Sequence record: PQ821640
Strand: one strand, 5' to 3'
DNA from: Escherichia phage SD2
DNA: 64,000 bases
Both the position numbers and the translations under genes were made by a program. This document shows positions 1,858 to 63,237 of this stretch, in pieces (position 1 is the stretch's first letter; every line of letters starts with the position of its first letter). The notes under the pieces were generated by a model, which searched no databases, was not told where the DNA came from, and saw only the letters and a program-made list of their open reading frames with translations.

Positions 1858-2262
1858 TTATTGTAGCTTAAGTGAACTGCGAAGACGTTTCTCTTGCTGA
1901 TCACGAATATGTTGTGGAACCTCATGAATTGAGTCGTTACCGTGCCTATTTTCAACAACTAAAGAGATAACTTGATAACCAAACTCTTCAGCAAGAGTTA
2001 AATAAGGTTTAAGTTCTTTCTCTGTGGTTGAAGTGTTAGAGACAATAATCTTTTTAATATTAGATGCCATAGCATCACGAACAATACTCTGACACCATGC
2101 GTGTGCTTTACCTACATTCTCTGGCTTCCAATCGTAAACACCACTTTCTGTGTAATGATATTGATCTGCCTCACAGATAGGCCAATAACCTTCAGAAATA
2201 ATTTCTGCTACTGTAGATTTACCTGCACCTGAAACACCACGTAAAATGATAAGTTGTTTCAT
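1858..2262 (-). CDS. P-loop kinase, polynucleotide 5-prime-kinase-like
   Basis: Walker A GVSGAGKST at the N-terminus; size and layout resemble the T4 Pnk kinase domain; sits directly downstream of a ligase-like and a phosphoesterase gene. Confidence 0.6.
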   Translation of the reverse strand: MKQLIILRGVSGAGKSTVAEIISEGYWPICEADQYHYTESGVYDWKPENVGKAHAWCQSIVRDAMASNIKKIIVSNTSTTEKELKPYLTLAEEFGYQVISLVVENRHGNDSIHEVPQHIRDQQEKRLRSSLKLQ

Positions 2263-3195
2263 TTAGCCTCCAAAGAAGTTTTCTATTTCTTTACGTCGCT
2301 CTTGTGGATCTAAAGCAGCCCATTGAGTCTTAGTAAAGTTGTTTCGAAGCCATTCTAGCAAAGTATAATATTCTTCGTCAACAATTTGTTTAGCATTTTT
2401 TGGGTTGTCCCAAATCATATCCCACTTCTTATTGCCACCACGCATAAGGAATTTCTTAGCAAGATAGTATGGTGACTTAATCTTTAACAGCAAGTTAAAC
2501 GGATAGTTTGTTTCACGAACAACAAACCCTTCGTGCTTACAATGTTTAGACATTTCAACAACATCTGAAAATTTAATCATCGGATAAACTTCAGGACGTT
2601 TAAATTTTGTAATAGATGCAATCCCATCGAGCACACCTTCAGGTAACATGAAACTTGTCCCATCAAGATTTTGAATCCTTGCTCCAATTAAGTATGCGCC
2701 TGGTTCTTCTTCGACAATATGTGGATCAGAAGCATCACAGATTTCAAAAAGGAAAGTTGCTTTTGCACTTTCTGTCCACTTAATGAAATATTCTATGTCA
2801 TCACACTCTGAAACAATATGGTTCTTGGCAAGAATTGCAAAATCTGACTCTAGGCTCCCTGTTGTTGATACAATAAGTTGCCCTTTGTACACACCTACAG
2901 ATGCCATAAAACCGTTTACTTTACGGACAGCATCTACAAGTTGGTCTGCTGGAAGATCTGTACCATTCTCAAAACGATTAAAGATTTTAGTAAAAGGCCA
3001 AATAACAACATTATCTTCTGAGTCAACAACCAACCCACGACAATCTAGAAGTCGTTTGTCAACGTTCCACAAGTTATCCCAGAATACATTGTTTTTGTAT
3101 TTAAGTACAGCAAGACCAGCATACTCTCCAGATTTAACTTCTTTTTTATGTACTAAACCTTTTGCAATCAGGTCATCACAATTGAACTTAGCCAC
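2263..3195 (-). CDS. ligase-family nucleotidyltransferase, probable RNA ligase
   Basis: Covalent nucleotidyltransferase motifs: motif I KVNG, motif IV EGFVVR, motif V LLKIK; distinct from the DNA ligase at 1-1116. Confidence 0.5.
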   Translation of the reverse strand: MAKFNCDDLIAKGLVHKKEVKSGEYAGLAVLKYKNNVFWDNLWNVDKRLLDCRGLVVDSEDNVVIWPFTKIFNRFENGTDLPADQLVDAVRKVNGFMASVGVYKGQLIVSTTGSLESDFAILAKNHIVSECDDIEYFIKWTESAKATFLFEICDASDPHIVEEEPGAYLIGARIQNLDGTSFMLPEGVLDGIASITKFKRPEVYPMIKFSDVVEMSKHCKHEGFVVRETNYPFNLLLKIKSPYYLAKKFLMRGGNKKWDMIWDNPKNAKQIVDEEYYTLLEWLRNNFTKTQWAALDPQERRKEIENFFGG

Positions 3196-3196
3196 C

Positions 3197-3748
3197 TTAA
3201 TCTCCTTTGATTATCTTATGATGGTCTACAACAACAATATCACGCTTATCCATAATAGAGATGATTTCGTCAAAATGCAAGATTTTTCCGTGTGCGTCCC
3301 AACCAACATCCAACATTTTCCCATACAAATGATCAGGGAATGATCCGTGAGAGTGCCCGTGTAGCATGATTGAACCATGCCCTTGTTTATTCCAGGCAGC
3401 CATAGGATAATGACTTAAGACGAAGAACAGTTTCTGATATTTCACTTCGTCATAATACACCACCTCACCATATTCTGCAAGCACTTCTCGGTGTTTGCTG
3501 TAGTCATGGTTCCCAACACAGTAAGTAATATCCCCTTGAAGACGTGAAGCAATCTTACGGGTATCTTCTTCAGTCCCGAAACAGAAGTCGCCCAAGTGCC
3601 ACATCTTGACACCAGGACTCGTAGCACATTTATTCCATGCTTCAATCAGGGCTTCTGTCATATGATCCATATCTTCCCACTGGCGATATTCAGGAGCAAA
3701 CTCTCGAATACGTTTGTGCATAAAATGCAAATCACTTGTAATAAACAT
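3197..3748 (-). CDS. calcineurin-like metallophosphoesterase
   Basis: Motifs DLHF, GDFCFG, GNHD, HGHSHG in canonical order. Confidence 0.75.
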   Translation of the reverse strand: MFITSDLHFMHKRIREFAPEYRQWEDMDHMTEALIEAWNKCATSPGVKMWHLGDFCFGTEEDTRKIASRLQGDITYCVGNHDYSKHREVLAEYGEVVYYDEVKYQKLFFVLSHYPMAAWNKQGHGSIMLHGHSHGSFPDHLYGKMLDVGWDAHGKILHFDEIISIMDKRDIVVVDHHKIIKGD

Positions 3749-6642: not shown

Positions 6643-7536
6643 ATGAAAGTTAGTATTCTGCATGGTGTTGACTGTTATGTTACTGATGTAGACGTTAAAG
6701 TGTTTACATTCTCTGGTGGAGAACAACATGTTCAATTAGATACGAATCTATCAGGTTTCAATCATGCTACAGACAGAATCTTACTCACTTTAGAAGTAAG
6801 ATCTGCTAAAGACTTGATGACTTTGGTTATGACTAAGAATGCATTGGACAATATGCTATATCATAAACCGTATTGTGTTGATTTACTCATGTTGTATGTG
6901 CCGTATGCACGGCAAGACAGAGTGTGTGAGCCTGGGGAAGCATTCGGAGTTAAAGCATTTGCTTCTATAATTAATTCATTAAATTTCTCACGTGTTATCG
7001 TTGCTGATCCGCATAGTGATGTTACTCCAGCAGTGTTTGACAGACTCTGTGTAATACCTCAAGAAGAGATTGCTTACGAAACTTTAAAGTGGAAGTTACG
7101 TATGGAGAATTTTGCTCTTGTTAGCCCTGATGGTGGTGCTCTTAAGAAAATATTTAAATTATCTAAGAAAATGTCTTTAGATGTGTTCTGTGCAGAGAAG
7201 GTTAGAGATACCGCAACAGGTGCTATTGTTCGTACAGACATTTCTGTACAGGATTTCAATAAGCGTAACCTGATGATCGTAGATGATATCTGTGATGGTG
7301 GTAGAACTTTTATCGAATTGGCTAAAGTGCTACGTGCTCGTAACGCAGGTAAGATTGAGCTATATGTTACGCACGGTATCTTTTCTAAAGGTCTTAAAGA
7401 GTTAAGTGAGCACTTTGACTGCATTCATTCTCTTAATGTGTGGGAAGATAACATCCAAGAAGATTCTGGTGTTCTTGTTAAGAATCAGTCAGATTTGCAA
7501 CAACAAATTGTATCTCCATACGTGTGGAATTTTTAA
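6643..7536 (+). CDS. ribose-phosphate pyrophosphokinase-like protein (PRPP synthetase family; possibly ADP-ribose pyrophosphokinase)
   Basis: PRPP-binding loop MIVDDICDGGRT and DPHS motif; AGGAG site before ATG. Confidence 0.75.
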   Translation: MKVSILHGVDCYVTDVDVKVFTFSGGEQHVQLDTNLSGFNHATDRILLTLEVRSAKDLMTLVMTKNALDNMLYHKPYCVDLLMLYVPYARQDRVCEPGEAFGVKAFASIINSLNFSRVIVADPHSDVTPAVFDRLCVIPQEEIAYETLKWKLRMENFALVSPDGGALKKIFKLSKKMSLDVFCAEKVRDTATGAIVRTDISVQDFNKRNLMIVDDICDGGRTFIELAKVLRARNAGKIELYVTHGIFSKGLKELSEHFDCIHSLNVWEDNIQEDSGVLVKNQSDLQQQIVSPYVWNF

Positions 7537-7546
7537 ATAATAAGTG

Positions 7547-7575
7547 TTGACAATAGGGAGTATGCTTAGTAAGAT
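7547..7575 (+). promoter_or_regulatory. sigma70-like promoter (TTGACA-N17-TAAGAT)
   Basis: Consensus -35 with 17-nt spacer; same motif recurs upstream of many units in this window. Confidence 0.5.
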
Positions 7576-7607
7576 ACTCCCACATTAACAAACAAGGAGA
7601 CATAACT

Positions 7608-9341
7608 ATGAATATTTTTGCACCTTTTGCTACTGATTGGTACAAACCTGGTCACAAGCAGATGTACAACCAAAATACAAAACTTATTTTCTCTAATTTA
7701 ACTCCTCGTAATGATAAAAACTTTGCACACTATGCAGATCGTGAAGCACGTGGTGTGATTGTTTTAGGTATTCGTCGAGCAGTCACTGATGCTCTTGTAA
7801 CTATGTGGGATAGCTTCTTTAAAATGTCTCGTAGTGCAGCAGTAAATAAATTTTATCGTATGTCTAAAAATGCGTTAGGTGCTTCTGCTCCTTCTGCTGA
7901 ATGTTGGGGAGAATTGCACGACTTAGGTTATCTTCCGCTGGAAGTTCGATCTCTGCCAGAGGGTGTTTTGTGTCCTATTGGTGTTCCTGTATTTACTGTG
8001 CATAATACTTTAGAAAAATTCTTTTGGTTAACTAACTATGTGGAAACACTGTTGTCAGATGAAACTTGGAAGACAATGACTAATGCCACAGCAGCTTTTC
8101 AGTATAAGCGTATCGCTATGGCATATGCGATGGCAACGTGTGATAATATTGATCACGTTAACTTCCAGTGTCATGATTTTAGCCTACGTGGTTTAAGTAA
8201 TATCGAAGATGGTTATAAGAGTGGTATTGCTCATTTAGCATCTTTCACAGGGACAGATAATATTCTGGCTATTGAAACTGTGCATGATTATTATGGTATT
8301 GATTATGATCAGTTTGTTGCAGGTTCTATTCCGGCAACAGAACATTCAGTAGCAACTACTAACATTGGAGCTATTGTTGAAGACCTGAAGAAACATTTCC
8401 CACATCTTAAAGATGATGTAGATGGTCTTCGTTATGTAGCAGAGAAAGAGTTTCTTCGTCGTTATATTGAAGAAATTGTTCCAGAAGGTTTTTGTTCATA
8501 TGTAGCAGATTCCTATGATTACTGGGCTGTCTTGACTCGAATTCTGGTAGAATTGAAAGATTCCATTATGTCACGAAATGGTCGTCTTGTTATTCGTCCA
8601 GATTCAGGAGATCCGGTTAAAGTTGTTGCAGGATACAATGTTGAATCTTTTGATAACTATGAAGACCTCTTAAATAATGGTATTGCGACAGCCACTGAAG
8701 TAGTTCATTTGGCTGATGTTAATAAGTATTACAATGTTCTTCAGGATTGCAGTGTTGCTGACTGTATTGATGAAACTTATGAGATTCCTTATTGTGAAGC
8801 AGTAGGTTCTATTCAAATCCTTTGGGAAGTGTTTGGTGGTACTATCAACCGAAAAGGCTACAAGGTTCTTGATCAGCATATCGGTATGATTTATGGTGAT
8901 TCCATTACTGTTGAACGAGAACACGAGATCTTACGCCGACTGAAGAAGAAAGGTTTTGCAGCTTCCAATATTGTATTTGGTGTTGGTAGTTATACTTATC
9001 AGTTCAATACACGAGATACTTTCGGTTTTGCTGTTAAAGCAACAGGTAGTATCATCGGTGAACACGAAATTTTGGTAAGTAAGGAGCCTAAAACTGATCC
9101 TGGTAAACGCTCTGCAAAAGGTTTTATTAAGGTTGTTAAGGATACCAATGGTAATCTTTCTCTTGTAGATAATCTTTCTTTTAAAGATATCCAGGATGAA
9201 GACAATGAGTTACAAGTTATCTTCAAGGATGGTAAGGTTATTACACCACAAGTAGAAGGCCGTGATGAAACATTCACTGATATCCGCAACCGTGTTGATG
9301 TAGAGGTTCTTCGTACTATGGGAACCATCCAGGTTGACTAA
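7608..9341 (+). CDS. nicotinamide phosphoribosyltransferase-like protein (NadV/NAMPT family)
   Basis: N-terminal DWYKPGHKQMY resembles the NAMPT start; 577 aa; immediately follows the Prs-like gene. Confidence 0.7.
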   Translation: MNIFAPFATDWYKPGHKQMYNQNTKLIFSNLTPRNDKNFAHYADREARGVIVLGIRRAVTDALVTMWDSFFKMSRSAAVNKFYRMSKNALGASAPSAECWGELHDLGYLPLEVRSLPEGVLCPIGVPVFTVHNTLEKFFWLTNYVETLLSDETWKTMTNATAAFQYKRIAMAYAMATCDNIDHVNFQCHDFSLRGLSNIEDGYKSGIAHLASFTGTDNILAIETVHDYYGIDYDQFVAGSIPATEHSVATTNIGAIVEDLKKHFPHLKDDVDGLRYVAEKEFLRRYIEEIVPEGFCSYVADSYDYWAVLTRILVELKDSIMSRNGRLVIRPDSGDPVKVVAGYNVESFDNYEDLLNNGIATATEVVHLADVNKYYNVLQDCSVADCIDETYEIPYCEAVGSIQILWEVFGGTINRKGYKVLDQHIGMIYGDSITVEREHEILRRLKKKGFAASNIVFGVGSYTYQFNTRDTFGFAVKATGSIIGEHEILVSKEPKTDPGKRSAKGFIKVVKDTNGNLSLVDNLSFKDIQDEDNELQVIFKDGKVITPQVEGRDETFTDIRNRVDVEVLRTMGTIQVD

Positions 9342-53784: not shown

Positions 53785-54732
53785 TTAGAAACAGTGCAGG
53801 AAGTTTCGACCATATTGCAAACCAATAGGAGCAAACGGGATATCATCATCGAAATCTTGAACAACAGGTTCTGGTTCTTTCGGTGCTGGCTCTTTCTTCT
53901 CTACTTTTTTAGTTTCTTTCTTAACTTCTTGTACTGGAGTAGACATTCCACGGATAGCAGCAGCTACTTTATCAGACAAAGCAAGAACTTCACGAGCAGC
54001 TTCAATAATTTCTTCTGCCGTTACAGTTTTACCTGTATGATCACGACAAGCGTTAAGAATTGCGTGTCCAACTGAAGCACCAAGATCATAGTCAGTCACA
54101 TCAACGCCACGATCTTTAGCAATTTCAGCTTTCAGAGTAACAGTTGCAGATTGTACCACACCAGCCAAGTCGAAAGCATCACCTTTCACACCAGCACGTA
54201 GAAGCTCCAGAGCGCCGTTTATAGCGTGTCCTGTTTCAATCCCTACGGTATCACGTTTTTTGTAGTTAGGCTTGCTACCGTCATTATTAGAGGGCTTATT
54301 TCCACCTTTTGAAGAGGATTGCGCTTGCTGAACACCTTCTGTTGAAAGAATAGTGATTTTACCTTTAGAGGAGTTGTAGTATGTTTTGCCATTCCATTCG
54401 GAAGGTTTAACATCCATAGTTAGTTCTACACCTTTTTCGATAGTAACCCACTTATCACCATCTTTAACTTGCAGGTTTTCATGTTCTGGGTGCAGTTTAA
54501 CTTCACCTAGGCTAACCCAAACACCTTTATCATCAGCACCAGCACCTTTCTCTTTAATAAGCAGAGATGCTTTGTGAGTTGATTCAATTTTCTTATCTGG
54601 CTGACCTGCAACCTTAATATAAGAGACTTTCATTTCATCAAACTTATCTAGTTTGACATATTCGACAATACCTTCAGCCCAGAATGCTTCTTTTTTAGTA
54701 CGACGGTCGATTTCAGAATTAATTACTGGCAT
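53785..54732 (-). CDS. single-stranded DNA-binding-like protein with host-SSB C-terminal tip
   Basis: C-terminus DFDDDIPF matches the E. coli SSB tail tip; Gly/Ser/Asn-rich linker; N-terminal domain not obviously canonical. Confidence 0.5.
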   Translation of the reverse strand: MPVINSEIDRRTKKEAFWAEGIVEYVKLDKFDEMKVSYIKVAGQPDKKIESTHKASLLIKEKGAGADDKGVWVSLGEVKLHPEHENLQVKDGDKWVTIEKGVELTMDVKPSEWNGKTYYNSSKGKITILSTEGVQQAQSSSKGGNKPSNNDGSKPNYKKRDTVGIETGHAINGALELLRAGVKGDAFDLAGVVQSATVTLKAEIAKDRGVDVTDYDLGASVGHAILNACRDHTGKTVTAEEIIEAAREVLALSDKVAAAIRGMSTPVQEVKKETKKVEKKEPAPKEPEPVVQDFDDDIPFAPIGLQYGRNFLHCF

Positions 54733-55147: not shown

Positions 55148-55158
55148 TCAAGTCCTCA

Positions 55159-55187
55159 TAATAACACATAATTGTAAGGTTTGTCAA
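55159..55187 (-). promoter_or_regulatory. sigma70-like promoter on minus strand (TTGACA-N17-TTATTA)
   Basis: Consensus -35 in the 43-nt gap upstream of 55147; very short leader makes it uncertain. Confidence 0.3.
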
Positions 55188-55190
55188 CAC

Positions 55191-55805
55191 TTAAATCTTA
55201 AATTCTTCGTTGTTAAACGAATCCAGTGTACGTACTTCTGGTTCTTTGGGGATGAAAACGTCTTTTACAAAGCGGAACATAGGGAAACGTTCTGCCATTT
55301 TACGGACGTGTGCTTCTTTACCTGTGTATCGGTGATTAATAGTGCAAATATTAGTTTTCAATGCAAATTCAAAATCTGGATGATATACATAATTTAGACC
55401 ATCCCAGTAACACAGGCAAATAGCTACGTCAAAATTCCATACGATTTCACTGCGTACACCTTCTTCCATGATCATAAAGTTAAACTTAAGATCTTTATAG
55501 TATGCTTCAAATACCCATTTCAGATGTGGTAGTTCGGCATAAGTATGTTCTGTTTGCTTAGTGAGTTGTTTAACATTACGTGCACCAACACCCAACATCA
55601 AAAACTTCTCTACTAGCACGAGTGTATTGTGGTTAGGCATACGCAAGTAAATGTCAATGTCTTGTGCAGGTTTCTCTAATCGCCAATCACGTACAGCACC
55701 GCCAGCTACAATTGCAAACGGATCTACCAGTTGGCACATACGTAATACTTCTAAAGCGCGTACTTTTTGATCTTCAATATTCATATTTTCTCCTATCGTG
55801 TCCAC
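55191..55805 (-). CDS. nucleotidyltransferase with CCA-adding-enzyme-like head motif
   Basis: GGAVRDWRLEKPAQDIDIY resembles the pol-beta-type GGAVRD...D.D head motif of tRNA nucleotidyltransferases; only 204 aa. Confidence 0.5.
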   Translation of the reverse strand: MDTIGENMNIEDQKVRALEVLRMCQLVDPFAIVAGGAVRDWRLEKPAQDIDIYLRMPNHNTLVLVEKFLMLGVGARNVKQLTKQTEHTYAELPHLKWVFEAYYKDLKFNFMIMEEGVRSEIVWNFDVAICLCYWDGLNYVYHPDFEFALKTNICTINHRYTGKEAHVRKMAERFPMFRFVKDVFIPKEPEVRTLDSFNNEEFKI

Positions 55806-56389
55806 TCTTTGTGTTGTTCTACATGCTCAAGCATTTCATTATACAGTGCTTTAAGATGTGGAACAACTCTTTCATCTTCAGTTTCAAAGAATTTTGTAAG
55901 CTGCTCTGCCTTAGCTTTCAACCAGCAAAGATGTGCTTCAATTTCAGTATTAAAACGTCCCAGCGTTATAACACGTCCATCGCGTTGAATATGGGCTTTA
56001 TACTTTTTACGATCTTTTTCGTAACTACAGCCTACCATAGTTCCATGAGATCTTTTACTTACTCTATAAGCTAAGAACTTGTTAAGATCTCCTGTTACTA
56101 AAAGACAGGTATCGGGAGAGTAAACTCTCCCTCCTATAATATCTTTATCAAGTTCTAAGTTTTCCCAGTTATCCCAAGTTTGCAACCAGGAGTAGAAATT
56201 GGAGAACAACTTCCATTCTTCACAAACCGTCACCCCATTATAACAAGGATCACGTTCTTGTTGGCAAGGGGAGTAACACCTCCCCAACATAGCCATCCAT
56301 TTCATATAATGCGGCGTTAGTTTCTTACTACCAGGTAGCGTACTCTCGCCTTCCAAATCATTAATACCTTCACCATATACGGTAAGCAT
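55793..56389 (-). CDS. homing endonuclease-like protein with AP2-type DNA-binding domain
   Basis: C-terminal KKYKAHIQRDGRVITLGRFNTEIEAHLCWLKA matches the AP2 pattern; wedged between polymerase and nucleotidyltransferase genes. Confidence 0.45.
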   Translation of the reverse strand: MLTVYGEGINDLEGESTLPGSKKLTPHYMKWMAMLGRCYSPCQQERDPCYNGVTVCEEWKLFSNFYSWLQTWDNWENLELDKDIIGGRVYSPDTCLLVTGDLNKFLAYRVSKRSHGTMVGCSYEKDRKKYKAHIQRDGRVITLGRFNTEIEAHLCWLKAKAEQLTKFFETEDERVVPHLKALYNEMLEHVEQHKEWTR

Positions 56390-56416: not shown

Positions 56417-59400
56417 TCAGTGACAAGACGCCCATGAATTACCAACATCGTAACCAGCAGTGAGAGGTACATTAAGATTGTAATACTCACCAGCTTTATT
56501 AACAGCGATAGATGCTAATTCTCCAGCACGACTGTAGGCTGTAAACCAACCACCTTTCGGAGATTCATGTACGTTAGCCCAAATCTTGCCAGTACGTTTC
56601 TCTTCCTCTTCTTTCCAGGCATTAACTTTATCCAAACATTCTTTATCAATTTTCTTTTGTTCTTCTGGATCATCAACTTGAGTCCAACCTAAAGATTCTT
56701 TAGAGAACCATTTAAAATGCACCAGATCACGAGTTACTTCAAGCTGTGCTTCATCGTGATATGCAATCATTTGTTGAACGAATGACTTATTTTTCCAGTC
56801 ATCAACAAAAAAGTCAACAGCTAATCCTTCTTCTTCGATAAGATCGTCGTAGATAACCATTGCTCTTTTTGCACAAATAACACCACCACTCTGGAACAGA
56901 GAGTTAAGTATTGCGTGTGCAGATCGTGTAGGTACTTTCCTACCATCAATACCCAGAATGTATTTCTTACCTGTTTTAACCCAGAAATCATGCAGACGTT
57001 CTTTAAGAAGTGCAAGAGGTTTTGCAGCTTCCCAGAAAGCATCGTATACAAGCTGTCCTGTATACATATCACTACCAATAGTTTTTGCTACTTTTGCAGC
57101 TTGAGCACCATAAGTAATACCATACTTAACAGATTTAGCAGGGCTTCGTTCAAACTTACGACCAATAGTGTCAGAAATACGTCGAGCCATCATTGTATGA
57201 ACATCATTAGGTTTTTCCAACAATAGAGCATTACAATATTCGTGTGGTTCCTGCTCGTACCGCCAACAATTCCCTGTAATCGTGATGCAGTCTTTCTGAC
57301 GCATAACCCATGTACCGAGTTCTGTTTGTGGACACCAAACATCTTCTACACCCCATTCTTCAATAGTCAGACTTTGAACAGGGATGTGAGAGCGGTTAGC
57401 CAACGTTGCCACTTTTACTTTCTGGTCTTTCGTATTGAAGGCTACAGAAATATTACCCCCATGAACCAGGTATGAGGCAGTTAAGGCTGCTTCAAAAAGT
57501 TCTCCTGGGTTCTGCGCCCAGCGCCAAACAGGTTTTTGTTTATGTTTGTGCCAGTAACCATCCGCAATCAAAAAACCTTCCAAGAAAGCCACACGCTCGG
57601 CATGAGACATATTAACTACACGTTCTACCCACGGAACATCCCATTTACCTTGTTGAACAGAAGTTAAACTATTTACTTGATCTTGTTCCATGTTAAATGG
57701 AGCATTACAAATAATGTTATCTCCTGTGCAAAGCTCGGCAGTTGTTCTGACTTTAGGCACATAAGTATTCCCTGTACTACGAGTATTAACATACCAACGG
57801 TGATCTGCTGTTGCACGATAAGTATGGGATTTTCCTTTAATCTCAAACGTCTTACTATTTTTATAGAAGACCTTACCTTTTACTTTAGTCCATTCTTTAA
57901 GTCCTGTTTCTGGGTTATATCCTAAGATTTCATCCCCTTCTTGTAGATCGTGATAACCAACCCAACCTTTACGGGTTAGTGCTTGTGCATCCATAGGTAC
58001 ACAGTAGTGTGATTCTATTTTTGCCTCAAGAGAATCAAAGTCATAACCAATTTGGAAGTATTTTGGAACTTCTACACCAAATAAGTTACGCATTTCATAT
58101 CCGTACAGAGATGTTACACGTGGGATATTTGCTACTAACCTATGTTTCATACGAGACGTAGCTGCATCGCACGTTGCAGCAGGGGTTGGTATACGACCAT
58201 CAGCCCTTACTGCCGCCAGATAACCTTTATCGTAATCCTCTTCATCCTCTTCCCAATCAGCGCCACCCCCTAGAATAGAGTTCCTACGATGTTTATACGT
58301 AAGATACTGCACAATCTGCGTAGCATAAGGAAACTTTTCACCTAGTGCTTCCAAGTTAGGACAAATATCCTTCTCTTGCCCTTTTGTAAAGGAAGGGTTA
58401 GTAAGCACTTTAACACCACGACCTTTAGCTTTAGCAATACGATCTCTTAGTTTCCATTCCAAAGTTTCTGGTGTGCACTCCAGATGATCACATCTATCCT
58501 GGCAGAAGTTAGATGCTAATGTTTGATCAACATAGTCACGAATAGCTTTCTCCATTTGTGCTTCATCTTTCTTAATCTTAGTGCCAGATTTAAGAGTGAT
58601 ATCTTTATCTTTATATTCAGATGGACTCCAACCTAAACCAACTAACCAATTTTTAATATGTGTAGTGTCGTCTAAAGTAGCAGGTACTGTAGGATCACAA
58701 ATAGGTTCTTCTGCTGGAATAGGTAGTTTAAACTCTTTACCTAATGCAAATAACCACCAACCATCTTCTTTTTGTACAAGTTCACCAGAATGTTTCTCTG
58801 CAAACTTTATCATGTTACTTGAAGGTTCACCATTCTTTTTAAACTGTAGTTTAGGTGGAATGAATGATTTCAAATAACCTTTAGTAGCAGGTTTAGGAGG
58901 TAGTACAGGTTCTGCCTCTAAACGACATGCTTCCATTCGAGCATCCAGATCACGAATATTATCTTCTGCTTGTTTCATATTGAAAGCAAAGCCACGGTGC
59001 TCTTGACGTGTAATAATATCAGCTACACGTTGTTCTAAGTTAAATGGTTCAGACCACTTATTATAATCACCCCACTCTTCCATCAAATAACGGAACACTG
59101 CGGTGTTAGCTTTGTTATCGTAAATACAGTAATACAACATATCTGCTGCAAATGTTCTAAATCTTTCAGTTTCAGGGATGTTTTTTCTAAAATCAATTTT
59201 AACATCCCCTCCAGCTTTCTTAGATAACTCTGCCAGACTATGACCACCGAAGCGATCAGGGTTTAGTGTCTTACTTAAGATCATAGTATCACAAATTTCA
59301 ATGTTACTATTACCCCAAGTATTGTACTTAATACTGTAGTTGAGTTTAAAAAATAATTTAATTGCCAGTAAGTCGAAGTTAATGATGTTGTGTCCGACTA

Positions 59401-59731
59401 CTTTGGTAATTTTATAGTTTGAATTACCTTTAAATTTACCTGTTCCATTTACAAAATCAGGAAAATCTTTAAGAGGGAAATGGGTATATTCTAAATGCTC
59501 ATATTCCTCCAGTCGGTATTCATACTTTCCGTCAGTCTCAATATACGGACGACCATCGAAAAGATATTTATCACCATCATGGAAAGCAATAATCTCTCCA
59601 GTATCATGACTTTCGCACACAATACAGTGCATTGCAAAACTATCTTTTAAACGATATGGACTTGCCAAGTAATCTACACTTTCGTCATTAAGCAAGTTGT
59701 TACTTTCAATGTCGAAAGTAAAAGCTCCCAT
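56417..59731 (-). CDS. DNA polymerase, family A, interrupted by an intein
   Basis: Exo I FDIES; motif A DFDSLEAKI; motif B RSPAKSVKYGITYGA; motif C YHDE; 1104 aa including insertion. Confidence 0.8.
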   Translation of the reverse strand: MGAFTFDIESNNLLNDESVDYLASPYRLKDSFAMHCIVCESHDTGEIIAFHDGDKYLFDGRPYIETDGKYEYRLEEYEHLEYTHFPLKDFPDFVNGTGKFKGNSNYKITKVVGHNIINFDLLAIKLFFKLNYSIKYNTWGNSNIEICDTMILSKTLNPDRFGGHSLAELSKKAGGDVKIDFRKNIPETERFRTFAADMLYYCIYDNKANTAVFRYLMEEWGDYNKWSEPFNLEQRVADIITRQEHRGFAFNMKQAEDNIRDLDARMEACRLEAEPVLPPKPATKGYLKSFIPPKLQFKKNGEPSSNMIKFAEKHSGELVQKEDGWWLFALGKEFKLPIPAEEPICDPTVPATLDDTTHIKNWLVGLGWSPSEYKDKDITLKSGTKIKKDEAQMEKAIRDYVDQTLASNFCQDRCDHLECTPETLEWKLRDRIAKAKGRGVKVLTNPSFTKGQEKDICPNLEALGEKFPYATQIVQYLTYKHRRNSILGGGADWEEDEEDYDKGYLAAVRADGRIPTPAATCDAATSRMKHRLVANIPRVTSLYGYEMRNLFGVEVPKYFQIGYDFDSLEAKIESHYCVPMDAQALTRKGWVGYHDLQEGDEILGYNPETGLKEWTKVKGKVFYKNSKTFEIKGKSHTYRATADHRWYVNTRSTGNTYVPKVRTTAELCTGDNIICNAPFNMEQDQVNSLTSVQQGKWDVPWVERVVNMSHAERVAFLEGFLIADGYWHKHKQKPVWRWAQNPGELFEAALTASYLVHGGNISVAFNTKDQKVKVATLANRSHIPVQSLTIEEWGVEDVWCPQTELGTWVMRQKDCITITGNCWRYEQEPHEYCNALLLEKPNDVHTMMARRISDTIGRKFERSPAKSVKYGITYGAQAAKVAKTIGSDMYTGQLVYDAFWEAAKPLALLKERLHDFWVKTGKKYILGIDGRKVPTRSAHAILNSLFQSGGVICAKRAMVIYDDLIEEEGLAVDFFVDDWKNKSFVQQMIAYHDEAQLEVTRDLVHFKWFSKESLGWTQVDDPEEQKKIDKECLDKVNAWKEEEEKRTGKIWANVHESPKGGWFTAYSRAGELASIAVNKAGEYYNLNVPLTAGYDVGNSWASCH
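57269..58003 (-). mobile_element. intein (245 aa) in DNA polymerase between motifs A and B, LAGLIDADG-like remnant
   Basis: Starts with Cys after ESHY (CVPMDAQALTRKGW), TADH block B-like, internal FLEGFLIADGYW, ends ITITGN followed by Cys. Confidence 0.55.
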
Positions 59732-62012: not shown

Positions 62013-62282
62013 CTAAAATGATTCGTTTGTCTCCATAATATATTGCATTTCCAAATCTTCCATATGTTTCTTAAATTGGTAAACAATTTCCGATGGGGAA
62101 ATATCTATATCAAAAAGTTCTTTTGTACCAGAATAGAACCTAATACCATCAACAATAAGGCCACCATAATAATCCCAATCACTTTCTCGTGAAAAAGGAT
62201 TAGGTTCTTCATAATAGTAATCTACTTCAACAATAATAGGTTCTTTATTATCTTGTTTATACTCAAAATCAAAAGTGTTCAT
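62013..62282 (-). CDS. hypothetical protein (89 aa)
   Basis: ORF whose stop and start abut neighbouring genes. Confidence 0.4.
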   Translation of the reverse strand: MNTFDFEYKQDNKEPIIVEVDYYYEEPNPFSRESDWDYYGGLIVDGIRFYSGTKELFDIDISPSEIVYQFKKHMEDLEMQYIMETNESF

Positions 62283-63226
62283 TATAAATCCTCGATAAGC
62301 AGTCTGCGGGTTTCATTTAAATCATCAATATTGTAGTTATCTCTTACATATTTAGCAAGAGCCAATCCTTTCTCAATACAAACATCAGGAGATTCGATTA
62401 AGTATTCTACAATATCTTTCCACTCTTTAACTGAATCAGCAAAGAAGATTAGGTCTTTAAATTCTTCAGTATAGTAGTTCTCTCGTGGAGAACAAACGAG
62501 TGGCAAACCTTTAGCACCAGCCTCAAGAATTTTTAAATTACTTTTGGCATTATTAAAATGATTATTTACTAATGGAGCTATGGAGATTTGATGACCATCG
62601 TATGCTTCCATATAACACTCATAAGGACGAATACCTTCATAAACACAATCTGGTTGAATCTCTTCTTTAATTTGCAACCATTGAGCACTACTTAACTCTT
62701 CGTGATCTCTACGAAATCCACATAAAGTTAAATCTTTACCAAAAGCAGGAAGAATTGCTAAATCATGTTTATGTGTTTCACTTCCCGCCCAAACCAGTGG
62801 GCTTTTAGAATAACGATCTTTAGTAAGAACAAACTGCCCTTCATCAAAAGGTAGTCCGTTAGGCACAATATGTACATTATCATTGTATTGGCTTAATTCA
62901 ACCTTTAATGCTGGAGTTGTTGTAGTTACAAGATCGCTTCTTTCAAGGAACCATTTTAGGTCATCTCGGATTTGATTTTCAAATAATCCTTCCAGCATAT
63001 GCCCTTCAGGAATAATTAAAGAATCATCCAGATCCATTACCAATTTAAACCCAAGTTGTTTAAGAGCCAGGAAACCTGGCTTTCCACGAGTTGGTACTCC
63101 ATTGAATACAAAAATATTATGCTTAGGATTAATAGTCAGTTTGCGTTTATATGGCAAAATGATTCTATGAAAATCACATACACTATACCTTTCATGTCCA
63201 CGTGTGTCAAGAATAATATTAGGCAT
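62282..63226 (-). CDS. glycosyltransferase-like protein (GT-B fold), paralog 1
   Basis: C-terminal SIAPLVNNHFNNAKSNLKILEAGAKGLPLVCSP resembles the GT-B sugar-donor motif; paralogous to next gene. Confidence 0.45.
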   Translation of the reverse strand: MPNIILDTRGHERYSVCDFHRIILPYKRKLTINPKHNIFVFNGVPTRGKPGFLALKQLGFKLVMDLDDSLIIPEGHMLEGLFENQIRDDLKWFLERSDLVTTTTPALKVELSQYNDNVHIVPNGLPFDEGQFVLTKDRYSKSPLVWAGSETHKHDLAILPAFGKDLTLCGFRRDHEELSSAQWLQIKEEIQPDCVYEGIRPYECYMEAYDGHQISIAPLVNNHFNNAKSNLKILEAGAKGLPLVCSPRENYYTEEFKDLIFFADSVKEWKDIVEYLIESPDVCIEKGLALAKYVRDNYNIDDLNETRRLLIEDL

Positions 63227-63237
63227 ATGGCTCCTTG

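What the first reader, a model, noticed from the sequence alone, without database searches (positions are those of the whole stretch)
55191..55805. Compact nucleotidyltransferase with CCA-adding-enzyme head motif
The 204-aa protein carries GGAVRDWRLEKPAQDIDIY, close to the pol-beta-type catalytic head of tRNA nucleotidyltransferases, but is about half the length of a full CCA enzyme. With the RNA-repair-like cassette and tRNA array it may restore trimmed tRNA 3-prime ends, or it may be an unrelated minimal nucleotidyltransferase.
Basis: partly seen in the sequence, partly recalled or inferred. Interest (0 to 1): 0.5.

Follow-up and report, generated by a model that had tools for sequence, protein, structure and literature searches.

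The report
Compact Gad2-family phage nucleotidyltransferase
This is a real, conserved phage gene for a small nucleotide-transferring enzyme that shares only the catalytic head of tRNA CCA-adding enzymes; it belongs to the family named after Gad2, a phage protein that disarms the bacterial Gabija defence, so it is probably not a tRNA-repair enzyme.

Summary
The ORF and the GGAVRDWRLEKPAQDIDIY motif are real. The true start is most likely the ATG at 55784, giving 197 aa rather than 204. The window is a phi92-like E. coli myophage (Justusliebigvirus).

A confident AlphaFold model (pLDDT 90) matches class II CCA-adding enzymes and poly(A) polymerases best. Only motif A (GG...DxD) is kept, however. 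The RRD ribose motif, the EDxxR base template and the tRNA-binding body and tail are all absent, and the Pfam and NCBIfam CCA models score below threshold.

The protein belongs to a large family of about 200-aa phage proteins, with 1468 cluster representatives. A 99%-identical homolog carries a precomputed hit to Pfam PF26128 "Gad2". Profile-profile comparison with Gad2 homologs (one of them experimentally verified) gives 97.5% probability and E 6e-12. The Gad2 C-terminal ~230 aa are missing.

The gene sits directly after the DNA polymerase gene. It lies about 42-53 kb from the tRNA array and the RNA heal-and-seal cassette. All 15 phage tRNA genes already encode CCA, and the family also occurs in a phage with no tRNA genes.

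Best reading: an active stand-alone nucleotidyltransferase of the Gad2 kind, probably a counter-defence enzyme with an unknown acceptor. CCA repair is unlikely. This is a new member of a known kind, of modest interest.

The parts
55191..55784 (-).
   Evidence: ORF. AGGAG plus 5-nt spacer plus ATG. 197-aa homologs. An in-frame stop upstream of the ATG in the HNH-less contig L014.
55647..55703 (-). Motif A: GGAVRDW...D49-I-D51 (numbering of the 204-aa ORF). This is the glycine loop plus two catalytic aspartates of the Pol-beta fold.
   Evidence: Invariant A34, G35, G36, A37, R39, W41, D49, D51 in 60 homologs. Aligns with GGAVRD...DRD of E. coli Cca and AGGxITSLF...DLD of Gad2.
55506..55508 (-). 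E100, candidate third catalytic carboxylate on strand beta4.
   Evidence: E in 49 of 60 homologs. Lies in predicted strand 95-103. The assignment is an inference.
55416..55436 (-). Motif-B-equivalent NFDVAIC (residues 124-130). It is collinear with RRDLTIN of Cca and FDFTVCM of Gad2, and the two arginines are absent.
   Evidence: MAFFT alignment A4. Column counts: F125 54/60, S128 40/60, I129 45/60, C130 50/60.
55281..55328 (-). Motif-D-equivalent helix YTGKEAHVRKMAERFP (residues 160-175). It has conserved Y160, H/Y166, K169, R/K173, F174 and P175 but no EDxxR template.
55194..55250 (-). Low-confidence C-terminal tail (residues 186-204) ending ..LDSFNNEEFKI. Close relatives have a Pro-rich linker plus an acidic/aromatic end (..LDDAWDDNI).
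   Evidence: pLDDT 66-81. Alignments.
55790..55794 (-). Shine-Dalgarno AGGAG, overlapping the TAG stop of the upstream HNH gene.
55158..55187 (-). Sigma-70-like promoter (TTGACA-18-TATTAT with TG) immediately after the stop codon. It would start a separate unit for the 132-aa and SSB-like genes.
   Evidence: Best site of the region, 11/12. The total number of sites in the region is no more than chance.

Best explanation
The gene encodes a catalytically competent, single-module nucleotidyltransferase of the Pol-beta superfamily. It is a stand-alone 'head' plus the first helix of the neck, of the kind seen in class II CCA-adding enzymes and poly(A) polymerases. It belongs to the large phage family that Pfam names after Gad2 (Gabija anti-defence 2).

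Shown:
- the fold;
- the invariant GG...DxD active-site motif;
- homology to the N-terminal nucleotidyltransferase domain of Gad2 homologs, one of them experimentally verified;
- the absence of the tRNA-recognition parts and of the nucleotide-template motifs of CCA enzymes.

Inferred:
- It uses two-metal chemistry (D49, D51, probably E100) to transfer a nucleotide from an NTP onto an acceptor hydroxyl that is not a tRNA CCA end. With the RRD ribose sensor missing, a dNTP donor cannot be excluded.
- It does so as a counter-defence enzyme that blunts a nuclease-based host defence of the Gabija type. It is made together with the phage DNA polymerase.
- The acceptor is unknown. Candidates are a DNA or RNA 3' end, a defence protein or a nucleotide. 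The mechanism of Gad2 itself is also unknown.

My probabilities: homologous to Gad2, about 0.9. Some counter-defence role, about 0.45. Specifically anti-Gabija, about 0.25.
For: Family and fold
- AlphaFold model, pLDDT 90.3.
- Foldseek top 42 PDB hits are all class II CCA-adding, A-adding or PAP enzymes, E 4e-6 to 3e-4, about 190 aligned columns.
- PF26128, named Gad2 by the tool, is recorded on the 99%-identical protein P0001 and on other members.
- hhalign of the family (A2) against a verified Gad2: 94.5%, E 8e-8, 114 columns. Against 7 Gad2 homologs: 97.5%, E 5.7e-12, 122 columns.
- The same profile aligns only 22 columns with E. coli Cca, at 6.6% probability.
- PHROG cross-hits: Gad2 hits phrog_1614 at 2e-6, and the window protein hits Gad2's phrog_4400 at 2e-3.
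- The Gad2 authors' own homolog list includes short 214-228-aa forms, one with GGSLRDYF.

What is known of Gad2
- Knocking out gad2 makes SPbetaL7 Gabija-sensitive, a homolog restores resistance, and AlphaFold predicts a nucleotidyltransferase domain.
- Its mechanism was still listed as unknown in 2026.

Hints of a host-interaction role
- Between Justusliebigvirus and Phapecoctavirus the gene is only 36% identical, while neighbouring DNA polymerase is 83%, the SSB-like protein 61% and p132 55%.

Active site
- GG, R39, W41, D49 and D51 are invariant in 60 homologs.
Against: - The link to verified Gad2 is remote (21-25% identity over about 120 residues). It covers only the catalytic domain.
- The ~230-aa C-terminal part of verified Gad2 is missing, and it could carry the specificity for Gabija.
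- Bacillus Gad2 has GGxITSLF where this family has invariant GGAxRDW.
- gad2 sits in a dedicated anti-Gabija locus in SPbeta phages. This gene holds a fixed, syntenic position between DNA polymerase and SSB in two genera and in related metagenomic contigs. That pattern looks more like a replication-module gene than a swappable anti-defence gene.
- Long Gad2 homologs in Vequintavirinae sit elsewhere in the genome.
- The PF26128 model is not in the local Pfam copy, so I could not see its score or its coverage of this protein.
- No biochemical or genetic data exist for this clade.
Confidence: 0.45

Rival explanations
1. tRNA 3'-end repair. The compact enzyme re-adds C, C or A to phage or host tRNAs whose CCA ends have been trimmed. 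It would work alongside the phage tRNA array and the RNA ligase cassette.
For: - Motif A is almost identical to that of CCA enzymes.
- The best fold matches are CCA-adding, A-adding and PAP enzymes.
- The phage invests in tRNA biology: 15 tRNA genes, and a kinase, an Rnl1-type ligase and a phosphoesterase.
- Similar small phage proteins are often annotated 'tRNA nucleotidyltransferase'.
Against: - Motif B RRD is replaced by WNFD, and this position varies across the family (D/G/P/S).
- Motif D EDxxR is absent.
- There are no body or tail domains to hold a tRNA: 197 aa against 412 aa.
- Pfam PolyA_pol scores 19 against a 23-bit cut-off. NCBIfam CCA equivalogs score 14-15 bits against cut-offs of 281-290.
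- The core is not basic: median pI 7.0.
- The gene lies about 42-53 kb from the tRNA array and the repair cassette, in the replication module.
- All 15 tRNA genes encode CCA.
- The family occurs in a 47.7-kb Vibrio phage record (annotated as a partial genome) with zero tRNA genes. In 8 of 9 other loci no tRNA gene lies within about 6 kb.
- The host already has Cca.
Confidence: 0.08
2. Replication-associated terminal transferase. The enzyme works at the phage replisome and adds untemplated nucleotides to DNA or primer 3' ends, for example to process or protect genome ends or replication intermediates. This would serve the phage's own replication rather than counter a defence.
For: - The gene lies directly downstream of DNA polymerase A, and an HNH gene is inserted between them only in some genomes.
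- The order pol - NTase - p132 - SSB is conserved in Phapecoctavirus and in related metagenomic contigs.
- In unrelated phages the homolog lies next to DnaB/PrimPol, RNase H-like exonuclease/TK/RNR, or primase-helicase in a T7-like phage.
- Loss of the RRD ribose sensor is compatible with dNTP use (inference).
- Acidic/aromatic C-terminal tails in close relatives resemble the tails of SSB and T7 gp2.5 that recruit replisome partners (the resemblance is from my own knowledge).
Against: - The gene diverges far faster than the replication genes around it: 36% against 55-83% identity.
- The only tested relative acts against a host defence.
- A neutral core pI gives no sign of a strong nucleic-acid-binding surface.
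- Position in a replication module may only reflect shared middle-gene timing.
- ICP1 carries a truncated 137-aa version, which suggests the protein is dispensable.
Confidence: 0.2
3. Small-molecule nucleotide synthase. The enzyme joins nucleotides into a linear or cyclic product that jams or inhibits a host defence. One possibility is keeping the nucleotide-inhibited GajA nuclease switched off; another is competing with immune signals.
For: - There is a precedent: MNT-like phage nucleotidyltransferases make cGAMP and c-di-AMP that compete at TIR-STING.
- The small single-domain architecture has no obvious macromolecule-binding module.
- The core pI is neutral.
- That GajA is inhibited by nucleotides is from my own knowledge and was not tested here.
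Against: - The defining motif of that MNT-like phage clade (GS-x-AY[GAN]T-x4-SDxD) is absent; this protein has GGAVRDW...QDID.
Confidence: 0.1

Closest known systems
Gad2 (Gabija anti-defence 2; SPbetaL7 ORF_159 and a Brevibacillus laterosporus prophage homolog; Pfam PF26128)
   Same: - Homologous catalytic domain: hhalign 97.5%, E 5.7e-12.
- Shared AGG...DxD(Y/F), Q-I/L-M strand, F-D-x-x-(I/V)-C and (H)E/D-F motifs in the same order.
- Phage-borne.
- The Pfam Gad2 hit is recorded on the 99%-identical protein.
   Different: - Only about 21-25% identical.
- Lacks the ~230-aa C-terminal region.
- Keeps the CCA-like GGAxRDW where verified Gad2 has GGxITSLF.
- Sits in the replication module, not in the SPbeta anti-Gabija locus.
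- Anti-Gabija activity is untested for this clade.
Class II CCA-adding enzymes, A-adding enzymes and bacterial poly(A) polymerase (Pfam PolyA_pol head, PF01743)
   Same: - Pol-beta fold head.
- Motif A GGAVRD...DxD.
- Collinear equivalents of motifs B, C and D.
- Best structural neighbours.
   Different: - No RRD and no EDxxR.
- No body or tail domains.
- Below the Pfam and NCBIfam cut-offs.
- Profile alignment to E. coli Cca covers only 22 residues.
2la3 / NP_344798.1 of Streptococcus pneumoniae: stand-alone 'CCA-adding enzyme head domain' protein (191 aa, function unknown)
   Different: 9% identity. Not detected by the family profiles at sequence level. Its function is also unknown.
MNT-like phage nucleotidyltransferases that make competitor cyclic dinucleotides (BCP1 and Av05; Ho et al., bioRxiv 10.1101/2022.06.09.495361)
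   Same: Small phage-encoded Pol-beta-superfamily enzymes used, or proposed, as counter-defence.
   Different: A different clade with a different signature: GS...SDxD against GGAxRDW...DxD.
MenT / AbiEii nucleotidyltransferase toxins
   Same: Small nucleotidyltransferases acting on tRNA 3' ends. SPbetaL7 Gad2 and a T7-like phage homolog are toxic when overexpressed.

Membership tests
Class II CCA-adding enzyme / tRNA nucleotidyltransferase | Motif A: GGxVRD followed by the DxD catalytic carboxylates | tested here: met
   GGAVRDWRLEKPAQDIDIY. G35, G36, R39, D49 and D51 are invariant in 60 homologs. Aligns to Cca residues 4-25.
Class II CCA-adding enzyme / tRNA nucleotidyltransferase | Scores above the curated thresholds of the family models (Pfam PolyA_pol head; NCBIfam CCA equivalogs) | tested here: not met
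   PF01743: 19.0 bits against a 23-bit cut-off. NF009814: 14.8 against 290. TIGR03671: 13.7 against 281.
Class II CCA-adding enzyme / tRNA nucleotidyltransferase | Motif B: RRD (ribose 2'-OH and triphosphate recognition) | tested here: not met
   The collinear segment is W-N-F-D-V-A-I-C. The two Arg positions are variable and non-basic, and the Asp is kept in only 19 of 60. Cca has KRRDLTINA.
Class II CCA-adding enzyme / tRNA nucleotidyltransferase | Motif D: EDxxR amino-acid template that selects CTP and ATP | tested here: not met
   The collinear helix is T-G-K-E-A-H-V-R-K-M-A-E-R-F. There is no conserved E-D pair and no conserved Arg at the template position in either plausible register. 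The sequence alignment is weak, and no residue-level structural superposition was available.
Class II CCA-adding enzyme / tRNA nucleotidyltransferase | Neck (full), body and tail helical domains that bind the tRNA acceptor/T arm | tested here: not met
   The protein ends about 30 residues after the motif-D-equivalent helix: 197 aa against 412 aa for E. coli Cca. Target-normalised TM-score is only 0.24-0.33.
Class II CCA-adding enzyme / tRNA nucleotidyltransferase | tRNA-dependent addition of C, C, A | not testable with these tools
   Needs an in vitro assay or cca complementation.
Gad2 family (Pfam PF26128) | Match to the Pfam Gad2 model | tested here: met
   A precomputed, unmarked (E<=1e-5) PF26128:Gad2 hit is recorded on P0001, which is 195/197 identical to the window protein. 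The model is absent from the local Pfam copy, so its score and coverage were not seen.
Gad2 family (Pfam PF26128) | Detectable homology to experimentally verified Gad2 | tested here: met
   hhalign 94.5%, E 7.7e-8 to the verified B. laterosporus protein. 97.5%, E 5.7e-12 to a 7-sequence Gad2 alignment. BLASTP E 3e-5.
Gad2 family (Pfam PF26128) | Intact nucleotidyltransferase active-site motifs (GG loop, DxD) | tested here: met
   Invariant in both alignments.
Gad2 family (Pfam PF26128) | Full-length architecture of verified Gad2 (about 400 aa: N-terminal NTase plus a ~230-aa C-terminal region) | tested here: not met
   The window protein aligns only to Gad2 residues ~17-142 and has nothing beyond. 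Short 214-228-aa forms do appear in the authors' own homolog table.
Gad2 family (Pfam PF26128) | Location in a variable anti-defence locus | tested here: not met
   The position is fixed: DNA pol - NTase - p132 - SSB.
Gad2 family (Pfam PF26128) | Inhibition of Gabija defence | not testable with these tools
   Needs plaque assays on Gabija-expressing hosts.
MNT-like phage CDN-synthesising nucleotidyltransferases | GS-x-AY[GAN]T-x4-SDxD catalytic signature and NP-x-h2[DE] site | tested here: not met
   The signature described is absent from the sequence.
MenT/AbiEii toxin nucleotidyltransferases | Match to defence/toxin models, or closest fold | tested here: not met

The most novel reading that the evidence does not exclude
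The compact enzyme is tethered to the phage replisome through its C-terminal acidic/aromatic tail. It adds untemplated (deoxy)nucleotides to DNA 3' ends and so masks phage genome ends or nicks from DNA-end-sensing nucleases such as Gabija. This would give the first chemistry for the Gad2 family, in a minimal 197-aa form.
Probability: 0.12. Interest if true: 0.7.

Novelty: new member of a known kind. Interest (0 to 1): 0.3.

Why it matters
- Annotation. Small phage proteins with a GGxxRD...DxD head are often labelled 'tRNA nucleotidyltransferase/CCA-adding enzyme'. This case shows that label rests on motif A alone and that the defining tRNA features are missing.
- Mechanism. Gad2's chemistry is still unknown. 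This clade offers a minimal, domain-only, well-folded version in easily handled E. coli phages. The family has more than a thousand sequence clusters, so it is a convenient entry point for finding the acceptor substrate.
- Limits. None of this is unexpected for a specialist. The near-identical protein already carries a Pfam Gad2 hit and is called 'nucleotidyltransferase' in RefSeq.

Tried and rejected
- Profile comparison of the family with E. coli Cca to map motifs B-D: only 22 columns of motif A aligned, at 6.6% probability. Motif correspondence therefore rests on a 12-sequence MAFFT alignment and on secondary structure.
- PDB sequence searches with the protein, the family profile and the Gad2 profile: only borderline motif-A hits, or none.
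- Fusion partners: 10 longer homologs gave no Pfam hit for their N-terminal extensions. These turned out to be an unannotated repeated ~90-aa module.
- PADLOC scan: nothing.
- AFDB50 fold search: library unavailable.
- Literature search for 'PF26128': no papers. The Nature version of the Gad2 paper is not held, so the often-mentioned active-site-mutant result could not be checked and is not used.
- Synteny with the long Gad2 homologs of the related Vequintavirinae: not syntenic.
- Idea that the primase-helicase shares the acidic tail: it does not; it ends ..PDGSY.
- Idea that P0190 (400 aa) is Gad2 itself: rejected. Its NTase domain is C-terminal and it has no Bacillus phage match.
- Link to the NAD salvage genes (a nucleotidyltransferase as a missing NMNAT): considered only because ICP1 has its homolog 2 kb from PRPP synthetase. 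Dropped, because in this phage the genes are about 46 kb apart and the fold is Pol-beta, not the HxGH class.
Full report
**What the window is.** The region around the finding is 96-98% identical at nucleotide level to Escherichia phages alia, PD06, VEcB and others of the genus Justusliebigvirus (phi92-like myophages, Stephanstirmvirinae).

The gene order on the minus strand is:
- primase-helicase;
- a 131-aa ORF in the related genomes;
- DNA polymerase A;
- an HNH endonuclease;
- the target gene;
- a 132-aa protein;
- a 315-aa SSB-like protein;
- an N6/N4 DNA methyltransferase.

**The observation.**
- The 204-aa ORF 55191..55805(-) and the string GGAVRDWRLEKPAQDIDIY (residues 35-53, nt 55647-55703) are there.
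- The GTG start is probably wrong. It lies inside the HNH gene.
- An ATG at 55784 is preceded by AGGAG with a 5-nt spacer.
- The RefSeq and metagenomic homologs begin at that ATG and are 197 aa.
- In a near-identical contig without the HNH gene, an in-frame TAA lies five codons upstream of it.

**It is a real, widespread gene.**
- PHROG 1614 'nucleotidyltransferase' matches at E 6e-34.
- tblastn finds it in 195 phage records. These include Justusliebigvirus at 95-100% identity, Klebsiella phages at about 50%, Phapecoctavirus at about 37%, and Vibrio, Aeromonas and Pseudomonas phages at 26-35%.
- An exhaustive profile search finds 1468 cluster representatives at E<=1e-3 and 420 at E<=1e-10. Nearly all are 175-220 aa.
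- In 60 diverse members A34, G35, G36, A37, R39, W41, D49 and D51 are invariant.
- Also strongly conserved are D40, E100 (49/60), Q/N109, F125, C130, W133, Y160, H/Y166, K169, R/K173, F174 and P175.

**Fold.**
- With that alignment AlphaFold gives a confident model: pLDDT 90.3, pTM 0.83. Low confidence is confined to the first residues, a loop near residue 85 and the C-terminal tail.
- The top 42 Foldseek hits in the PDB are all class II CCA-adding enzymes, A-adding enzymes or E. coli poly(A) polymerase. E-values run from 4e-6 to 3e-4 and query-normalised TM-score is about 0.5-0.55.
- Target-normalised TM-score is only about 0.25-0.33, because the targets are twice as long.
- In the viral structure library many 165-220-aa phage proteins have the same compact fold. 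They carry labels such as 'Poly A polymerase head domain protein', 'nucleotidyltransferase' and 'tRNA nucleotidyltransferase', and include ICP1 ORF223.

**Is it a CCA-adding enzyme? Only motif A says so.**
- Pfam PolyA_pol head scores 19 bits against a cut-off of 23.
- NCBIfam CCA equivalogs score about 14-15 bits against cut-offs of about 281-290.
- The family profile aligns with E. coli Cca over only 22 residues, at 6.6% probability.
- PDB sequence searches give E 0.03-0.9 over the motif-A stretch.

A MAFFT alignment with Cca(1-163) and Gad2 N-termini places the later motifs collinearly and shows what is lost:

| Motif | E. coli Cca | This protein |
|---|---|---|
| B | KRRDLTINA | WNFDVAICL |
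| C | [24 protein letters not shown] | DGLNYVYHPDFEFALKTNICTIN |
| D | FGEDPLRVLRVARF | YTGKEAHVRKMAERF |

- The two arginines of RRD are not conserved, and the Asp is kept in only 19 of 60 sequences.
- The E-D...R template is not conserved in any register.
- The protein stops about 30 residues later, so the body and tail that hold the tRNA are absent.
- By the family's own defining features it is therefore not a member. It shares the catalytic head, and so plausibly the two-metal nucleotidyl-transfer chemistry.

**Context argues against a dedicated tRNA role.**
- The tRNA array (10089-13525, + strand) and the RNA repair cassette lie about 42-53 kb away, beyond the whole structural module.
- The cassette consists of a P-loop kinase (1858..2262), an Rnl1-type ligase (2263..3195) and a metallophosphoesterase (3197..3748), all on the minus strand.
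- That cassette is a self-sufficient heal-and-seal set.
- All 15 phage tRNA genes already encode their CCA.
- A family member sits in Vibrio phage 1.264.O (47.7-kb record, annotated as a partial genome), which has no tRNA gene at all.
- Of nine other family loci, only one has tRNA genes within about 6 kb.

Instead, the neighbours in divergent phages are replication and nucleotide-metabolism genes:
- DNA pol A and primase-helicase;
- DnaB, PrimPol and methyltransferases;
- an RNase H-like nuclease, thymidine kinase and ribonucleotide reductase;
- HhH/FEN-like and RNase H-like (polymerase) proteins in the Vibrio podophage;
- primase-helicase in a T7-like Pseudomonas phage.

**What family it does belong to.**
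- The precomputed Pfam column lists PF26128 for most members. The context tool names that family 'Gad2'.
- It records an unmarked hit (E<=1e-5) on P0001, which is 195/197 identical to the window protein.
- Gad2 is 'Gabija anti-defence 2'. Deleting it from Bacillus phage SPbetaL7 makes the phage sensitive to Gabija. A Brevibacillus laterosporus prophage homolog restores resistance. AlphaFold predicts a nucleotidyltransferase domain (bioRxiv 10.1101/2023.05.01.538930).
- I took the verified 394-aa homolog and six more from the paper's Supplementary Table 10.
- hhalign of the window family against the verified protein gives 94.5%, E 7.7e-8 over 114 columns.
- Against the seven-sequence alignment it gives 97.5%, E 5.7e-12 over 122 columns. 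This covers residues 19-159 here and about 17-142 of Gad2.
- Shared motifs are AGG, DxD-(Y/F), the Q-(I/L)-(M/I) strand, F-D-x-x-(I/V)-C and (E/D)-F.
- PHROG cross-hits agree.

Differences from verified Gad2:
- Identity is low, at 21-25%.
- Verified Gad2 has a further ~230 residues that are missing here.
- Bacillus Gad2 has GGxITSLF where this family has the invariant, CCA-like GGAxRDW.
- The authors' own homolog list, however, contains short forms (214 and 228 aa), one with GGSLRDYF.
- gad2 sits in a dedicated anti-Gabija locus, whereas this gene has a fixed place in the replication module.
- Long Gad2 homologs in the related Vequintavirinae sit near the spanin and terminase genes, so they are not syntenic.

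**How it most likely works.**
- Shown: a well-folded, single-module Pol-beta-type nucleotidyltransferase with an intact GG/DxD site, homologous to the Gad2 catalytic domain, without tRNA-binding or base-template elements.
- Inferred: it transfers nucleotides to a non-CCA acceptor, and it probably serves as a counter-defence enzyme.
- One further hint: between the two Stephanstirmvirinae genera the gene is only 36% identical, while its neighbours are 83% (DNA polymerase), 61% (SSB-like) and 55% (p132). This is the pattern of a host-interaction gene rather than a core replication enzyme.
- The chemistry is open. A 2026 review still lists the mechanism of Gad2 as unknown.

Candidate acceptors, none tested:
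- DNA ends. Gabija is described as DNA-end sensing and as licensed by RecBCD inhibition.
- A defence protein. Nucleotidylylation, as by MNT antitoxins on HEPN toxins, is a precedent from my own knowledge.
- Nucleotides themselves. Phage MNT-like enzymes that make competitor cyclic dinucleotides are a precedent, but that clade's signature is absent here.

The missing RRD motif means dNTPs cannot be excluded as donors. This is inference.

**Transcription unit.**
- The gene is the last of the polymerase unit.
- The best sigma-70-like site of the region (TTGACA-18-TATTAT with TG, 11/12) lies right after its stop and before the 132-aa gene.
- The count of such sites in the region is no higher than chance, so this is only suggestive.

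**Verdict.**
- The tRNA-repair interpretation is not supported. The 'other minimal nucleotidyltransferase' alternative is supported and can be named: a Gad2-family phage nucleotidyltransferase.
- This is a new member of a known kind. The near-identical protein already carries the Pfam Gad2 hit and is called 'nucleotidyltransferase' in RefSeq.
- What remains unknown is the substrate of the whole family and whether this domain-only, replication-module clade acts on Gabija.
- Interest is modest (0.3). It would rise if the enzyme proved to edit DNA ends at the replisome.

Noticed in passing
window 56417..59731 (-), insertion roughly 57239..57994: The DNA polymerase A gene encodes 1104 aa here but 859 aa in phage alia and in contig L014. 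PHROG polymerase matches split at residues 579/832. The extra ~250 aa contain a LAGLIDADG-like LEGFLIADGY and end ..ITITGN|C, so this looks like an intein with a homing endonuclease. ESCO5 (1110 aa) appears to have one too.
   Followed up: partly
window 55793..56389 (-): The HNH endonuclease gene between DNA polymerase and the nucleotidyltransferase is present in some near-identical phages (L015, alia) and absent in another (L014). It appears to be a mobile homing-endonuclease insertion. Its stop codon overlaps the nucleotidyltransferase Shine-Dalgarno sequence.
   Followed up: partly
window 53785..54732 (-): The 315-aa SSB-like protein (annotated SSB in ESCO5 and ESCO9) carries the E. coli SSB tail motif DFDDDIPF. 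The motif lies 17 residues before the C-terminus (..DFDDDIPFAPIGLQYGRNFLHCF), not at the very end. There is no Pfam hit.
   Followed up: no
window 55194..55250 (-); alignments A1/A2: Close homologs of the nucleotidyltransferase end in a Pro-rich linker plus an acidic/aromatic tail (..LDDAWDDNI, ..LDEAWDECF, ..PWDEEF; here ..LDSFNNEEFKI). This is reminiscent of the SSB and T7 gp2.5 tails that recruit replisome partners. More distant members lack it.
   Followed up: partly
window 55191..55784 vs L003 (phage ESCO5): The nucleotidyltransferase is 36% identical between Justusliebigvirus and Phapecoctavirus. The flanking DNA polymerase is 83%, the SSB-like protein 61% and the 132-aa protein 55% identical.
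   Followed up: yes
window 1858..3748 (-): RNA heal-and-seal cassette: P-loop kinase (AAA_33), T4 Rnl1-type RNA ligase and a metallophosphoesterase. It is complete without any nucleotidyltransferase.
   Followed up: partly
window 6643..9341 (+): PRPP synthetase and a 577-aa nicotinamide/nicotinate phosphoribosyltransferase (NAD+ salvage genes) lie just upstream of the tRNA array. ICP1 also has a PRPP synthetase about 2 kb from its truncated nucleotidyltransferase homolog.
   Followed up: no
window 10089..13525 (+): All 15 tRNA genes of the array end in an encoded CCA.
   Followed up: yes
window 55158..55187 (-): Near-consensus sigma-70 promoter-like site (TTGACA-18-TATTAT, TG-extended) between the nucleotidyltransferase stop and the 132-aa gene.
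   Followed up: partly
proteins P0066, P0073, P0115, P0160, P0190: Some family members carry one or two copies of an unannotated ~90-aa N-terminal module (MKxMKFRV..SxEHSExIQxxLFxxGYxW...EEYxL..G.FVK..DYFKQP) in front of the nucleotidyltransferase domain. There is no Pfam hit.
   Followed up: partly
phage records MG065639, MG065645, MG065656: GenBank records named 'Campylobacter phage A150/A145/C3' (host C. jejuni) are about 98% identical to this E. coli phage group over 24 kb. This is an odd host assignment.
   Followed up: no
window 62282..63978 (-): Two paralogous glycosyltransferase-like genes sit upstream of the primase-helicase. Phage alia has four annotated glycosyltransferases there. 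Whether their target is DNA or the cell surface is unknown.
   Followed up: no
L004 (Vibrio phage ICP1, ORF223): ICP1 carries only a truncated 137-aa version of the family, covering the N-terminal two thirds. Some isolates have two adjacent small ORFs annotated under the match.
   Followed up: no
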